Shown here piece after piece: positions 3,221-12,200 of a stretch of 64,000 bases of DNA. Each line of letters opens with the position of its first letter. The first letter of the stretch is position 1. The stretch comes from Perna viridis. Lineage: Eukaryota. The stretch is taken from the NCBI GenBank assembly GCA_037379345.1, contig CM074521.1, positions 4,898,001 through 4,962,000 on the forward strand, given 5' to 3'. The position numbers are program-made.

Positions 3221-6200
3221 CAATTTCAGTGCACTTTCAGAGCGTATTACCAATTCCTCGCTGACACAGGACTTTCAATATTTATAAACTTCATACATAC
3301 ACTCATTCCTTCTTCAAACAAACACCAACAAACAATACCGATTACATGTACCAGGATTTGCATTTTAATGGAAGCTGTTTTTTTCAACTGGTTGTCGTAG
3401 CTTAGCATTGTACACATAGGTGCGTGAAAAGTACTATTTAAAATTGAAATGTAATCTCCATTATAGGTCAAAGGATAATTTATTAATTGGAAAGAGTGAA
3501 TAATCATTATAATCACGAGTGCCGAAGAACGCCTAGAATTAACGAGAATGCGGAACTATATTGCGTTTTTGGCACGACCGGTTATATTTTCGATTGGTTA
3601 TTCACGATAAACAATTGATTATCCTATTTATTATATAGATTTTCTCACTTATTTGTTGCTATTTTCAACATGACATTCAAATTTTGTGAATAGCGGATTG
3701 GTATACATGTGTATTTTATGACGTTTTGGCAGGAGAAAGTCGAAATCAGAATGAAATTACCGAATTCATTTCACAGTGTAAATTATCGAAAAATGCTAGA
3801 GAGAGAACATTCGGTAAATCGTGCTATCTATATATAAGAATAATCAATGGAACCAAGGTTATAGCGGTACTCAAAAGAATGTAGTCCAGGGACAAAGACC
3901 AGCCATGCAAAACAGACCTACACAACAAAGAACATAGAGTAACTAAAATCATACATACAAAGTAACAAAAGCAAATAAGCAACTCGGACTCCACTAAAAA
4001 CTGGGAGCATGGACCAGGTGCACCGATAGGGTTATTTGAATTATTGATGGAAATGATGTGGCAGTACACAGTAGTTTAATTCATTTTAATTATCTAACCT
4101 GAACTTATAGTGCCAGTACTAAAAGTCTCTTTGGTTTAAAACTAAAGGAAATGAAGGGTGTAAAAATGCTATCATTTTCTACTCTATTGTAATTGTGTAA
4201 TTTAATAAAATAAATTGTCCCTTGATTCCCGATTATCAAATCGGTTTGTGACGTATTTTAATAATAAATAATTTTTTTCTGTGTACAGAACATCTTGAAA
4301 GCTGAGTTGACTCGAGCCCGTTGAAAAAAAAATCACAATGTTGGTTTTTTTTTATAGTAAATATCATGTTAATGCAAAGATATCCAATTTTCCTAATTTT
4401 AGGGCGACAAGCGCATCTATTCAGCCTTCTACGTAATGCAAATTGTTGAAATAATGCCTTAGAGTATGATAAATGTTTCGATGAACAGCTATACTTAAGG
4501 CAAAGATCAGTGATGGCCAGCTTAGCTTTACATTTCTACAGCTGTATACATTTTTACTTGCATCATATCAAGCAAAAAAACAAAGATTATCAGGGACATG
4601 ACTTCTAAAATACTTCAAAAGAGCAGTGGTTTGTAATTAGACAAGACTAGAAACAATAACCATTTTGCTTTATTGACTTGTCCCCATACACTTAGAAACA
4701 GAACTATTAATTTTGTATAATAACAATTCTCTATGTGGAATTTACAGTAAATACACTTAGTTAAATATGCATCGGATGTAATAACAGCCAAGAGCACTCC
4801 ATTATAGTTTCGATGATTATTCTATAAACATTAGTATGAACAAATCAAATGCATTTTTTATATAATTATGAAGATTGCATAGTTATGATAAGGATAAGAA
4901 TATATGATAAATGGATGTAATTACAAATGGCTATAATGATATACAATAATTGTTTCATGTCCTTGTTACTTGTTGTGAGTCATTGTTTAGTTTTTGCGAT
5001 GAGTCATCTGATTTGACGAGATTCACAGGGGAGCTTATTTGTTGATACATGTGGTCTGGGCGGAGATTAAAATACTGTTGGTACTGATTCCGGCAAGAAA
5101 ATTCATAGTCATTGTAGTGTCCGAACCACGGTTGGGACAAGAGTGCATAATTTCCGAGAAAGCCCCAGGGATTCCATTCCGGTCTGGGTATCTCTGGTAT
5201 AGGTTCGTTGTTTTGTTGTTCACTACTAGATTTCTCTATGTCATTCTGTGCAGTTTCGATCTCTAGAAAGGAAAATAAAAAAAAAACAACTTTAAAAGTA
5301 TTTCAGCTGTTTCTACTTTAAAACTTACGGAATACATTTACAGAACTTAAGTCTAAGTATGAGATATTTAGAATAAAGATGCTACATTTTACAAGGTGTA
5401 CATTAGTTATATTTGAGGATGTAAAGTTTTGACAGTCAGTATGTCAACGACTCTTTTTAATTACCGACAGTCGAGGTATTTATTCACAAATGGCAGTCTG
5501 CCCTCCGAAACTGTCGTCTCATTTGTACATACATTGTACATTGTAGTATATTGTTATAATGTATGTATGTTTGTATGAGGTGATTACAGTAATGGGCCTT
5601 GTATAAGAATGACTGTGATCTTCTGTGCGCGCAAGTACAGTGTACTGAACTGAACACGTCACAGCTAGAGGATTGTCAGATGAAAGCTTCGATTGATTAA
5701 ATAGATAACACAAACCGAATTTTACATGCTTATCAATCCGCGTGTGATATAGGTCGAAGGTTGATACTACATGTGATACAGATTTTGACATGTCATACAA
5801 TATTTTAAGTACATTTATGTATACTGCAAAATTAATGTGTTTCGAGAAGGGATGTCTAGGCTGTGATATATGGTTTGGGATAAAGGGAAAATGGTATAGG
5901 GTTTAATCAGTCAATTTATACACAAACAAGTAAACAGTATTTATATATATACTGAATATTACATGTCAAATTCTGTATCATGATAGTCCTATAGTACACC
6001 AAGGACCACCAGCCCACGGGGTGATATAGGTCGAGGGTTGATACCGCATGTGAAACAGATTATTACATGTCATGTTCATTACATCATTATACATGTACTT
6101 GAATGTCATGTCCATTATATATCTTATCTTTTAACTATTCTTTAAGTATGTTTTGTGAATGGGTGTGATATAGGGTATGCGATATAAATCTATGCTGCGA

Positions 6201-9200: not shown

Positions 9201-12200
9201 AGTGATACTGCTGTAGAAAAAAAGTTGAAGGAAATTAGCGCTTATCGAATTCTTCAGTGTGGCCAAAAACAATGGCTTCCAGTATCTATTACAAGTTTTT
9301 TTTTTCTGCATGTCAGTGTAGCCCTGTCGTATTGATAATATGCCAGTAATTTTGGAGTTTCCATGGCGACATTGTGTTTAGAAAACATACCTATGACGAG
9401 GTCGCTTTGTATCCTCCAGGTGCTGATGGAAAAGTTTCATATCTTGGGCGATTCCTGTAAAAAATAATTTGGTCATAACTGCAGAATTGATATAGTTATA
9501 TAATGATATAATTAGAAATGTTGCAGTACAGGAAATGTTTAAAGAGTGCGTGTAGCTATGTTCATATTTGTTGCGTACAATAAACGAAACTAAAATAAAC
9601 TGATGATAAAATGGCAACAATTAAGCTATAGTTAATATACATATAAGCTGGCATAACATATAAACACGTGATAGGTAGTTCAGAAGGGCGAAGGGCCTTA
9701 GCACAGGCAATTTTATTTTCGGGGTGGGAGTGGCAATTTCATGCAGCAAACACATTGTTCGCACACTACGCTGATGAGACTATTTTTATGTTCCACTAAT
9801 ACAAAAAAAGATACTTGTATGGACAATTGTTCTTTTCTAATTGGCAAACGCGGACCCGCATATATTTTCATTCCAGATAAGGGCTAAATAATATTTGGAC
9901 ATTAGACAGAGCATTTTTTTTCACGAGAAAATCAAATTGTTTTATACAAATTAGATTAAATTAAACATATGACTGAGAGCATGTATCATGGTATGAAAGC
10001 CCATTTGGGTACAAAAGTGAGCGGGGAATATGTAAATTAATCCATGGCCATGAATCGGAATATTTTTGTTTTCGTTCGTTTTTTATTTATCCTAATAAGC
10101 TAGCTTTCACAGTATGGACTAGCCATGTTATTGAAATTATAATAAAAGTAGTCATAAGACATAGTTCAGTGATAATTTAACCTCTGAGGCGTCTCAGAAA
10201 CTCCGATAACCGTCTTCATTCAAGTTTCAAGTCATGTTTAAATTTATTAAAATATTCTAATATTTACATGTATATAAAATATTCATCTTGCAAGATTATA
10301 GAACAGTTTTAGAGTGGGCTCTGATAGAACTGTTCTATTGTTCTTTTAAAACTGTTCTAGAGTCGGCATGTCTGACATTTCCTTGAAAGGATAGAACAGT
10401 TATCATTTGTAAACTGTATTTCAAGAAGATCATAATTTTTGAATTATTAAAAGTAACAAATAAAATAATAAAAAGTGTTTTTTTTTTAAATTTAGTAAAA
10501 ATTTATTTTAATTTATTAAATGTTGTATTTTGTATGCTTTGAAACATATTGGTCATTAAAATGGAAAAAAATCTTCAAATACGTAAATAAAAATATACTA
10601 GGTCATAGGCGATTTATAGATGTATTCAGTTTTTTTTCAATAACTATCAAACGCAAATTCACAAGTAAATCATGTGGTTTTGTTTTCACGGTATTGCCTA
10701 ATGAGTAATAAGTCAATGATTGACCAATATATTAAAAAGTACACATGTACATCCCTAGGTGTCACGATTTAGGACTTACACATGTACACATGTACATGTA
10801 AATGGCTGTCCATGTAAAAATCTGGTAGATCCTATGATACGGTTGGCACAGAAACATATTTTTACCACTGTTTTTGTTTTGTTTCGATGTAATGTAATAT
10901 ATATATCAAATAGTAAACAGATATTTTAAAAGCGACAAAAAACGATTTTTCAAGTTCCCTGACAGAGCAACAAAATTGTGTGCAAAAATAAATTCAATGA
11001 ATTACAATGCTTTTTATATGACTGTGTTTCTTTTTAACAGTTGCAGTTATTACAAAAACTGACATTCAACTTTGAGAAAGATTGAATTTGTGATATGAAA
11101 TGGATGAACAATTTTTAAACAAAATTTTCATGTGCAACCCACTGCCTGGTTTTTGTATGGGCACCTCTTAACATTTGTTTTAATTAACCTCTCATAAAAC
11201 AGTTCTATGACTGTTGGACATTTGTAGGAACAGTTCTTCTGACAGTTTTAGCAGAGCCTGACCTTTTGAAAATTGTAGCAGAGCCTGATCCTCTGACAGT
11301 TACAGCAGAACCTGTTCTAGAACAGTTTTAGTGTGGGCTCTGACAGAACTGTTCTATGGCTCTTTTAAAACTGTTCTAGAGTCGGCTTGTCTGACATTTC
11401 CTTGAGAGGATAGAACAGTTATCATATGTAAACTATATTTCAAGAAGATATTTAGGAGTGTATAACTTAATCTCTGTTTATTTTCCATGACACCATCTTT
11501 TAAATTCACATTATAATCAGCTATTTTGTCAAAAAAAAAAGATTTATAATCCATGTAATTCTGGAGTAGTCAGAAGTCATTATACACAAATGTATAAGCA
11601 TACAATATCAATGCATTAATAAATGAAAAACAAAAGCAAACTTATTTGTTTTATAACATGAATATATTCTGACATTTACATGTACAGGTGCAATATAACA
11701 GGGGCATCAAAATCATTATTTAAAAACCATTGTCACTTTCAAAAGTAGTTGAAATTTTTAATTACATTTATATTATAAAGCACACGCATTTCGTATTTGA
11801 AATTTCAGTTTCAGTAGTCTGAATTAACGATAAGTTCAGAAAACAATATAACAGTACATGGCGCAAAGATAATAGACTATATTTATTATTATACTTGGTG
11901 TGTATTTCAAGGTAAGAATTTAAATTTACATTTTGTTTGTTTTGTTTGAATATTACAAATATTTAAAAATAATAATGAAAATGGACATACCGCTAACTGA
12001 ATGAACTTTCATGACAACCAACTTGTTACTGATAAAACTAAAATACGATTTAGAAATGAAAATTACTTGGTTATTTATAAGCACTTCAAAGAATGGAATA
12101 AATCCAAAAATTTATAATACCAATATAATTAGACATAATAATCCCCAATTTGTATAAGGGTCTCGTGTCTACAGTTCTGATAATTGACGATATTCGCACC

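What the first reader, a model, noticed from the sequence alone, without database searches (positions are those of the whole stretch)
4955..12012. Hidden, divergent Repo-like homeobox gene split into 22-124 nt exons
Seen: the homeodomain is invisible in the ORF track because it is split over three small exons. It carries the Repo-like APYPDV motif but is only about 40/60 identical to Drosophila Repo as I recall it, with unusual M16 and I47 (PRD class normally L16, V47), a very short N-terminus and an extra phase-2 intron in codon 5. Established: Repo is the arthropod glial determinant, and spiralians have lineage-specific PRD expansions. Inference: either a fast-evolving repo orthologue (a possible handle on mollusc glia) or an undescribed repo-derived paralogue.
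Basis: partly seen in the sequence, partly recalled or inferred. Interest (0 to 1): 0.7.

Follow-up and report, generated by a model that had tools for sequence, protein, structure and literature searches.

The report
Mollusc-specific Repo-like homeobox gene
The window holds an intact five-exon homeobox gene from a mollusc-only sister group of the fly glial gene repo; it is an ordinary transcription-factor gene, but it suggests that mussels and snails kept only this divergent copy.

Summary
On the minus strand, five exons (22, 64, 124, 70 and 308 nt; 4955-12012) have GT..AG at all four introns and code for 195 residues. The homeodomain is spread over exons 2-4. It carries APYPDV, M16 and I47, and matches a Drosophila Repo homeodomain at 39 of 59 positions.

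A 195-residue Mytilus edulis protein matches every exon, including the 22-nt first one.

The gene belongs to a well-supported mollusc-only clade, "type B" here (97/91). Bivalves, gastropods and cephalopods all have it.

- **Links to Repo:** type B shares A23-P24 with all Repo proteins, and M16 with lophotrochozoan Repo only.
- **Paralogue, not orthologue:** Octopus and a chiton also keep a canonical Repo ("type A"), so type B looks like a Repo-derived paralogue.
- **Possible loss:** no bivalve or gastropod type A appeared among the listed hits.

Caveats: the Repo link is the preferred topology but is not significant (49/92 support; AU p 0.22). There is no transcript or expression evidence. Published mollusc cell atlases do not tie Repo to glia. 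The joined model was never searched.

The parts
11991..12012 (-). Exon Ea: first coding exon, 22 nt, ATG plus 6 codons plus 1 base; GT donor follows
   Evidence: boundaries and donor. 7 of 8 residues equal the N-terminus of the M. edulis protein P0001. Too short for a statistical test.
9391..9454 (-). Exon Eb, 64 nt: short N-terminal region, homeodomain residues 1-4 and the first two bases of codon 5 (phase-2 intron follows)
   Evidence: tblastn with P0001 gives E 6.3e-6. No Pfam match on its own (20 residues).
7449..7572 (-). Exon Ec, 124 nt: homeodomain residues 5(last base)-46, helices 1 and 2, with M16 and APYPDV
   Evidence: Pfam Homeodomain E 1.5e-12. Best PDB matches are aristaless, paired and Alx4. 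93% identical to P0001. Sister to P0001 in the tree at 98/92.
6774..6843 (-). Exon Ed, 70 nt: homeodomain residues 47-60 (recognition helix: I47, Q50, N51, then G59) plus 9 further residues
   Evidence: Pfam Homeodomain profile positions 46-57, E 7.9e-4. tblastn with P0001 gives 91% identity, E 3.6e-10.
4955..5262 (-). Exon Ee, 308 nt: C-terminal tail of 101 residues plus the stop (4955-4957)
   Evidence: tblastn with P0001 gives 51% identity over 101 residues, E 2.8e-33. No Pfam family at E up to 1. The equivalent region of P0001 is predicted disordered.
5165..5176 (-). W-N-P-W motif in the tail (W-x-P-W, conserved in type B of bivalves and basal gastropods)
   Evidence: Alignment A1: the first W is nearly invariant. 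W.PW occurs after the homeodomain in 18 of 36 type B and 0 of 210 type A proteins. Coordinates worked out.
6161..6736 (.). 33/38-bp tandem repeat filling much of the Ed-Ee intron (non-coding)

Best explanation
This is an intact, probably functional gene for a small (195-residue) paired-like homeodomain transcription factor with Q at position 50.

It is the orthologue, in a mussel-like bivalve, of a mollusc-wide gene group that I call type B. Type B most likely arose by duplication of the Repo (reversed polarity) gene in the mollusc stem lineage and then diverged. Its typical residues are P2, R21, V/I29-T30 and G59, against F29-A30 and R/K59-E60 in canonical Repo. Cephalopods and a chiton keep both copies. 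Bivalves and gastropods appear to keep only type B.

Likely mechanism (inferred): the three-helix homeodomain binds TAAT-type sites through R5, I47, Q50 and N51. The disordered tail carries short motifs, notably W-x-P-W, which may recruit a Groucho-type co-repressor.

Shown: gene structure, homeodomain, family membership, clade, signature residues and fold. Inferred: the duplication scenario, loss of the canonical copy, DNA target, and any repressor role or cell type.
For: Gene model:
- GT..AG at 4 of 4 introns and an open 195-codon frame.
- Every exon matches the 195-residue M. edulis protein P0001.

Homeodomain:
- Pfam match, exon by exon.
- PRD-class proteins are the best solved relatives.
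- The P0001 model has three helices at pLDDT 93-97 and disordered tails.

Type B clade:
- 33 rows, including window exon Ec and three cephalopod proteins, at 97/91; 98/93 with 66 columns.
- 25 of 25 named type B proteins are molluscs: 10 bivalve, 12 gastropod, 3 cephalopod.

Link to Repo:
- A23 in 30 of 32 and P24 in 32 of 32 type B rows, and in 25 of 25 type A rows. Among 10 other PRD rows, A23 is in 0 and P24 in 1.
- M16 in 27 of 32 type B rows, 6 of 6 named lophotrochozoan type A rows and 4 of 4 unnamed type A rows. It is in 0 of 10 arthropod, 0 of 5 amphioxus/cnidarian and 0 of 10 outgroup rows.
- In the word-free search of 1.84 billion representatives, the best single-homeodomain hits outside type B are canonical Repo (up to 94.9 bits). 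Other PRD families start at about 86 bits.
- The ML tree nests type B among type A.
- 28 of 215 type A fragments break off exactly before R5, hinting at a shared intron.

Paralogy:
- Octopus sinensis P0020 and Liolophura P0173 are type A and pair at 95/77.
- Octopus vulgaris P0143, Argonauta P0139 and Doryteuthis P0147 are type B.
- Liolophura P0174 is sister to type B at 94/54, or 95/78 with 66 columns.

Possible loss of type A: 0 bivalve or gastropod type A among the 240 rows listed.
Against: - The split of outgroups from A+B has only 49% bootstrap (SH-aLRT 92). It is absent with 66 columns, where one outgroup row falls on the wrong side.
- The AU test does not reject type B grouping with two non-Repo PRD rows (log-likelihood 11.3 lower, p 0.22).
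- Raw identity does not discriminate: 37-41 of 59 to most type A rows (one at 36) against up to 38 of 59 to outgroups.
They cover only the nearest PRD families.
- pick candidates by shared words and list 120 of 306 and 120 of 376 hits. A bivalve type A could be missed or simply unannotated.
- The Octopus type A and type B proteins come from two sibling species, not one genome.
- No RNA evidence exists for the window's gene.
- The W-x-P-W motif is absent from cephalopod, caenogastropod and heterobranch type B (18 of 36 have it).
Confidence: 0.6

Rival explanations
1. Type B is simply the fast-evolving one-to-one orthologue of Repo in molluscs. On this view the canonical-looking genes of Octopus and the chiton are a separate matter: retained duplicates from independent events, or misassigned genes.
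For: An oyster homeobox survey lists a single Repo gene, CGI_10005826 (PMC5322547, Table 1 read in the text). Only one APYPDV gene per bivalve or gastropod species turned up here. Type B shares A23-P24 and M16 with lophotrochozoan Repo.
Against: The cephalopod type B proteins lie inside the starred type B clade, while Octopus sinensis P0020 pairs with chiton P0173 among canonical Repo at 95/77. So two distinct gene types exist in cephalopods, and probably in one chiton genome (P0173 and P0174). For bivalves, which have one copy, the difference between 'orthologue' and 'surviving paralogue' is partly a matter of wording.
Confidence: 0.25
2. Type B is a separate mollusc PRD-class family descended from another paired-like gene (Arx, Alx, Hbn or Rax type). 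On this view it acquired A23-P24 and M16 by convergence.
For: The AU test does not reject a tree joining type B to two non-Repo rows (p 0.22). Raw identity to those rows, 38 of 59, equals that to many Repo rows. Type B has T30 and R21, which also occur in outgroup rows.
Against: It would need convergence at three positions, one of them (M16) matching only the lophotrochozoan subset of Repo. The unbiased search ranks Repo above the other families. The ML topology prefers Repo by 11.3 log-likelihood units. No OAR domain was found in the tail.
Confidence: 0.1
3. The locus is a pseudogene, or the model is an artefact of chance open frames and splice signals.
For: There is no transcript evidence. 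The 22-nt first exon cannot be tested statistically. The tail is only 51% identical to the Mytilus protein.
Against: There are no stops or frameshifts in 195 codons across five exons. All splice sites are canonical. All four testable exons match the orthologue, with E from 6e-6 to 3e-33. The DNA-contact residues and the W-x-P-W motif are conserved.
Confidence: 0.03

Closest known systems
Repo (reversed polarity), PRD-class homeobox family, as in Drosophila, Tribolium (P0104) and Pycnogonum (P0096)
   Same: Paired-like homeodomain with Q50. The A23-P24 (APYPDV) signature is found in all type A and type B rows and in no outgroup row. An intron lies between codons 46 and 47, and probably one at codon 4/5. 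Repo proteins are the best non-family hits in the unbiased search.
   Different: Identity is only 36-39 of 59 homeodomain positions to arthropod Repo. Type B has V/I29-T30 and G59 instead of F29-A30 and R59-E60. The protein is much shorter: 195 residues against about 350-630 for most. The W-x-P-W tail motif is absent from 210 of 210 type A proteins. Glial function is not shown, and published squid and nudibranch data do not suggest it.
Canonical lophotrochozoan Repo: Octopus sinensis P0020, Liolophura P0173, Lingula P0169, Owenia P0157, Lineus P0155, Tubulanus P0234
   Same: These share M16 as well as A23-P24 (6 of 6). A proline and a basic residue follow just after the homeodomain in most of these rows.
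   Different: These keep the canonical F29, mostly A30 and E60, and never G59. They fall outside the type B clade. Octopus (as a genus) and the chiton have both types.
Oyster 'Repo' CGI_10005826 of Paps et al. 2015 (PMC5322547)
   Same: It is probably the oyster member of type B. The only oyster APYPDV proteins found here are type B: P0008 (UniProt K1QG81, named 'Aristaless-related'), P0006, P0005 and P0011.
   Different: I could not map the identifier to a sequence.
Arx / Alx / Hbn / Rax-type paired-like genes (the automatic names given to type B in databases)
   Same: Q50 paired-like homeodomain with similar raw identity, up to 38 of 59. These are also the best solved-structure matches.
   Different: They have T/S23-H24 and L16 (10 outgroup rows). 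No OAR domain was detected in the window's tail. The family names of the unnamed outgroup rows are my recollection of their signatures, not a tool result.

Membership tests
PRD class, paired-like homeobox genes with Q50 | A 60-residue homeodomain | tested here: met
   Pfam PF00046 matched exon by exon: Ec at profile positions 5-45 (E 1.5e-12) and Ed at 46-57 (E 7.9e-4). The P0001 model has three helices at pLDDT 93-97.
PRD class, paired-like homeobox genes with Q50 | Q at position 50 and closest similarity to PRD-class homeodomains | tested here: met
   Exon Ed encodes W48-F49-Q50-N51. The top PDB hits are aristaless, paired, Alx4, Phox2b and Pax3.
PRD class, paired-like homeobox genes with Q50 | Intron between homeodomain codons 46 and 47 (recalled as typical of the class) | tested here: met
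   The Ec/Ed junction falls exactly there, in phase 0. That this is a class hallmark is recalled, not tested.
Repo family | A23-P24 in the APYPDV stretch | tested here: met
   Present in exon Ec. Found in 25 of 25 type A rows; A23 in 30 of 32 and P24 in 32 of 32 type B rows. Among 10 outgroup rows, A23 is in 0 and P24 in 1.
Repo family | Groups with Repo in a homeodomain phylogeny | tested here: inconclusive
   The ML tree nests type B within type A, but the outgroup split has 49/92 support and is absent with 66 columns. AU p is 0.22 for an alternative placement.
Repo family | Repo proteins are the nearest relatives outside the gene's own group in an unbiased search | tested here: met
   canonical Repo scores 84-95 bits, and other single-homeodomain PRD hits score at most about 86 bits. 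The query was the Mytilus stand-in P0001, not the window's joined model.
Repo family | Canonical residues F29-A30 and R/K59-E60, with P-P-R-K after the homeodomain | tested here: not met
   The window has V29-T30 and G59-I60. Type B has G59 in 29 of 32 rows.
Repo family | One-to-one orthology with arthropod repo | tested here: not met
   Octopus (two sibling species) and Liolophura carry a canonical type A gene as well as a type B or B-like gene.
Repo family | Expression and function in glia | not testable with these tools
   No expression data are available here. Passages read in PMC12240821 and 10.1101/2023.06.22.546160 report no Repo signal in squid glia or in a nudibranch transcriptome.
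Type B (mollusc Repo-like group, unnamed in the literature searched) | Membership of the clade, plus P2, R21, V/I29, T30 and G59 | tested here: met
   Exon Ec alone falls in the 33-row clade at 97/91 and is sister to Mytilus at 98/92. R21, V29 and T30 are in Ec, G59 is in Ed and P2 is in Eb.
Type B (mollusc Repo-like group, unnamed in the literature searched) | W-x-P-W motif in the tail (bivalves and basal gastropods) | tested here: met
   W-N-P-W at 5165-5176. Found in 18 of 36 type B and 0 of 210 type A proteins.
Arx / Alx / Rax / Hbn | T/S23-H24, and for several of these families a C-terminal OAR domain | tested here: not met
   The window has A23-P24. No Pfam family, OAR included, was found in the last exon at E up to 1.

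The most novel reading that the evidence does not exclude
Molluscs duplicated Repo in their stem lineage. Cephalopods and chitons kept both copies. Bivalves and gastropods lost the canonical gene and kept only the divergent type B, which gained a W-x-P-W tail motif that recruits a Groucho-type co-repressor. The 'Repo' counted in bivalve and gastropod homeobox surveys would then be a functionally shifted paralogue. That could help explain why no Repo-based glial programme is seen in molluscs.
Probability: 0.2. Interest if true: 0.55.

Novelty: new member of a known kind. Interest (0 to 1): 0.38.

Why it matters
Repo is the textbook terminal selector of insect glia, and whether glia are homologous across animals is an open question.

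A recent review states in a table note that Repo is missing from Lophotrochozoa (PMC11193209, passages read). The hits here contradict that. Canonical Repo-type homeodomains occur in a brachiopod, an annelid, two nemerteans, a chiton and an octopus.

If bivalves and gastropods retain only a diverged paralogue, then 'Repo present' or 'Repo absent' calls in mollusc studies need to say which copy is meant. Expression tests of the two copies in a cephalopod or chiton would then be informative.

For genome annotation, the result replaces misleading automatic names (Rx-like, Arx-like, Prrx2-like, Pax-6-like, Hmx) with a consistent family assignment.

In itself the window's gene is an ordinary, conserved developmental transcription-factor gene.

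Tried and rejected
- **Diaphorina hit (P0014).** Its high score (145 bits) suggested a conserved tail between mollusc type B and arthropod Repo. One search showed that this gene model contains a duplicated half homeodomain, so there is no real tail similarity. Ixodes and Octopus type A also match only in the homeodomain.
- **Naming the outgroups and mapping the oyster protein to CGI_10005826.** A text search for K1QG81 found 0 papers, and CGI_10005826 occurs only in Paps et al..
- **Raw identity as a classifier.** Rejected, because Repo and non-Repo rows overlap.
- **Adding six residues after the homeodomain.** This did not firm up the Repo link.
- **Literature on a mollusc Repo paralogue.** Nothing found in the listings. 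The spiralian reclassification paper (PMC6118893) has 0 whole-word mentions of Repo. The octopus brain atlas and the planarian glia paper also have 0.
- **Other homeobox exons in the window.** None: the tblastn hits at E below 1 all fall in this locus.
- **Not attempted.**
  - The joined five-exon model was not assembled or searched.
  - The bacterial genome collection and the phage, plasmid and E. coli collections are irrelevant here.
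Full report
**What is there**

Reading the minus strand of 4800-12200 and checking the boundaries by script gives five coding exons:

| Exon | Coordinates | Length |
|---|---|---|
| Ea | 11991-12012 | 22 nt |
| Eb | 9391-9454 | 64 nt |
| Ec | 7449-7572 | 124 nt |
| Ed | 6774-6843 | 70 nt |
| Ee | 4955-5262 | 308 nt with the stop |

- All four introns (2536, 1818, 605 and 1511 nt) start GT and end AG behind a pyrimidine run.
- The phases fit, and the frame is open for 195 codons.
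- The homeodomain is spread over three exons. Eb holds residues 1-4 and two bases of codon 5. Ec holds residues 6-46 and the last base of codon 5. Ed holds residues 47-60.

Each exon was tested on its own, and a full-length database protein from a relative served as stand-in.

**More than chance**

- Pfam finds the Homeodomain profile in Ec (positions 5-45, E 1.5e-12) and its end in Ed (positions 46-57, E 7.9e-4, below the family cut-off, as 12 residues must be).
- The best solved relatives of Ec are aristaless, paired, Alx4, Phox2b and Pax3, all PRD class.
- A search with Ec alone among longer proteins returned 13 hits from 18 candidates. The best is a 195-residue unnamed Mytilus edulis protein, P0001, at 93% identity.
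- tblastn of P0001 on the window hits Ee (E 2.8e-33), Ec (6.3e-22), Ed (3.6e-10) and Eb (6.3e-6), and nothing else in the 64 kb.
- P0001 begins with eight residues, 7 of which equal what Ea plus the split codon encode.
- The tail is only 51% identical to P0001. The window therefore comes from a mussel-like bivalve that is not M. edulis.
- No transcript evidence was available.

- APYPDV, M16 and I47 are present.
- Identity to the homeodomain of a Drosophila Repo (D. willistoni P0108) is 39 of 59 positions, with split codon 5 left out.
- The N-terminus before the homeodomain is 23 residues.

**What family**

Two searches with P0001 were run: longer proteins and similar lengths. Reading the homeodomains shows two kinds of protein with the APYPDV stretch.

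- **Type A** is canonical Repo.
  - Arthropods have it, among them proteins named 'reversed polarity' or 'repo' (Tribolium P0104, Pycnogonum P0096, Rhynchophorus, Arctopsyche, Choristoneura, Carabus).
  - It also occurs in amphioxus, cnidarians, Lingula, Owenia, Lineus and Tubulanus.
  - Two molluscs have it: the chiton Liolophura (P0173) and Octopus sinensis (P0020).
- **Type B** is the window's kind. The 25 named members are all molluscs: 10 bivalve proteins, 12 gastropod proteins from 11 species, and 3 cephalopod proteins (Argonauta P0139, Octopus vulgaris P0143, Doryteuthis P0147). A further 11 are unnamed.

These two searches choose candidates by shared words, so they favour APYPDV proteins. 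They list only 120 of 306 and 120 of 376 hits.

The word-free search of 1.84 billion representatives with P0001 is the fairer ranking. It found 21,524 hits at E up to 0.001. Among single-homeodomain hits:

| Group | Score |
|---|---|
| Type B | 93-150 bits |
| Canonical Repo | about 84-95 bits |
| Other paired-like proteins | at most about 86 bits |

The ranges for Repo and for the other families overlap. Many top rows of that search were multi-homeodomain proteins whose scores add up. Some look like mammalian DUX proteins and may be human, so I did not use them.

**Tree**

From the 319 stored proteins I took 68 homeodomains plus exon Ec alone:
- 32 type B rows and the second chiton protein, P0174;
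- 25 type A rows: 6 named lophotrochozoan, 4 unnamed, 10 arthropod, and 5 amphioxus or cnidarian;
- 10 non-APYPDV outgroups: 9 unnamed and one fish protein.

I left out about 190 near-identical arthropod Repo proteins, partial and multi-homeodomain proteins, close duplicates (P0003, P0006, P0010, P0015), and P0265 and P0276.

Results of the careful ML tree:
- Type B, with the three cephalopod proteins and the window's exon, is a starred clade (97/91).
- The window's exon is sister to Mytilus (98/92).
- Chiton P0174 is sister to type B (94/54).
- Octopus sinensis P0020 pairs with chiton P0173 (95/77) inside an unresolved comb of type A.
- The branch separating the outgroups from A+B is weak (49/92).

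With six more columns, type B (98/93) and its chiton sister (95/78) hold, but the outgroups are no longer on one side.

An AU test does not reject a tree in which type B joins two non-Repo rows (log-likelihood 11.3 lower, p 0.22). The Repo link is therefore the preferred reading but is not proven by the homeodomain alone. Raw identity does not help either.

**Signature residues**

| Position | Type B | Type A | Outgroups |
|---|---|---|---|
| A23 | 30 of 32 | 25 of 25 | 0 of 10 |
| P24 | 32 of 32 | 25 of 25 | 1 of 10 |
| M16 | 27 of 32 | 6 of 6 named lophotrochozoan, 4 of 4 unnamed, 0 of 10 arthropod, 0 of 5 amphioxus/cnidarian | 0 of 10 |

- M16 is a derived state shared only by type B and lophotrochozoan Repo. 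This is what a duplication of Repo within that lineage predicts. M16 is therefore not an oddity of this gene.
- I47 occurs in 16 of 32 type B rows; going by the homeodomains printed, these are the bivalve and bivalve-like members.
- Type B's own marks are P2, R21, V/I29, T30 and G59.
- 28 of 215 type A proteins, mostly fragmentary models, lose the conserved basic arm exactly before R5. They show phenylalanine-, tyrosine- and leucine-rich residues there, as read-through of a splice acceptor would give.
It is an inference, not a reading of gene structures.

**Paralogue or orthologue**

Octopus (two sibling species) and probably one chiton genome carry both kinds. The two Liolophura proteins share the same 31-Mb longest contig. 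Type B is therefore best read as a Repo-derived paralogue that arose before chitons, cephalopods, gastropods and bivalves diverged.

No bivalve or gastropod type A is among the 240 listed rows. Lophotrochozoan type A proteins score 90-95 bits there, above the list cut-offs of 84-86 bits. This hints at loss of the canonical copy. It is weak evidence, because the searches are word-based, the lists are truncated, and unannotated genes cannot appear.

**How it probably works**

- The P0001 model, built with a 15-row alignment, has three helices (residues 33-45, 51-61, 65-80) at pLDDT 93-97. Everything else is below about 70. So the protein is a homeodomain with disordered tails.
- R5, I47, Q50 and N51 are in place, so binding to TAAT-type sites is expected. 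This follows from established knowledge of Q50 paired-like homeodomains.
- The tail holds a W-x-P-W motif (W-N-P-W at 5165-5176). It is present in 18 of 36 type B proteins, namely bivalves and vetigastropod and patellogastropod snails, and in 0 of 210 type A proteins.
- From memory, this motif resembles the W-R-P-W Groucho-binding motif. A repressor role is my speculation and was not tested.

**Literature**

- Paps et al. 2015 (PMC5322547; Table 1 and section 12 read) list one oyster Repo, CGI_10005826. I could not map it to a sequence (supplements closed).
- A review (PMC11193209; passages read) says Repo has a gliogenic role only in insects. Its table note says Repo is absent from Lophotrochozoa and Deuterostomia, which the type A hits here contradict.
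- A squid atlas (PMC12240821; one passage read) and a nudibranch preprint (10.1101/2023.06.22.546160; one passage read) report no Repo signal in glia or in the transcriptome.
- Searches found no description of a mollusc Repo paralogue. Subscription journals and supplements were not covered.

**Verdict**

The gene itself is an ordinary conserved homeobox gene, already predicted in relatives under misleading names. The modest point of interest is the mollusc-wide Repo duplicate and the possible loss of the canonical copy in bivalves and gastropods.

Noticed in passing
window 59444-59833 (-) and 38104-38577 (-): Two exons of a rhodopsin-family GPCR on the minus strand. The first holds the start of the protein and the first part of the 7tm_1 profile (positions 1-70, E 7.6e-14). 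The second holds the end of the profile (positions 187-260, E 1e-16). They lie more than 20 kb apart, and the middle exons were not looked for.
   Followed up: partly
window about 27770-30414 (+): Four consecutive open frames in different phases lie in the GC-richer stretch at 26-32 kb (0.39-0.42 GC against about 0.30). The last one matches the Pao retrotransposon peptidase (E 8.3e-24). This is a broken BEL/Pao-type retrotransposon.
   Followed up: partly
window 6161-6736: A tandem repeat with units of about 33 and 38 bp (up to about 11 copies) fills much of the intron between exons Ed and Ee.
   Followed up: no
window 10296-10430 and 11315-11449: A 135-nt direct repeat, 93% identical, with copies 1019 bp apart, inside the first intron. 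It is possibly a small dispersed element.
   Followed up: no
proteins P0201, P0217, P0226-P0229, P0238: Cnidarian proteins with a canonical Repo-type homeodomain carry the precomputed Pfam domain PF03826, which I recall as OAR. None of the bilaterian type A or type B rows listed carries it. The ancestral Repo may therefore have had this domain.
   Followed up: no
protein P0014 (Diaphorina citri): This gene model repeats the second half of the homeodomain and the following 100 residues, which inflates its score. It is probably an assembly or annotation artefact.
   Followed up: yes
proteins P0173 and P0174 (Liolophura sinensis): The chiton's canonical Repo and its type-B-like gene are both reported from a contig of the same length (31,077,156 bases), so they may be linked. 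The distance between them is unknown.
   Followed up: no
PMC11193209, table note: The review states that Repo is absent from Lophotrochozoa and Deuterostomia. Searches list canonical Repo-type homeodomains from Lingula, Owenia, Lineus, Tubulanus, Liolophura, Octopus and three Branchiostoma species.
   Followed up: partly
top rows: The unbiased search is headed by proteins with 3-10 repeated homeodomains, whose summed scores outrank true relatives. Some look like mammalian DUX arrays. They were set aside and not used.
   Followed up: no
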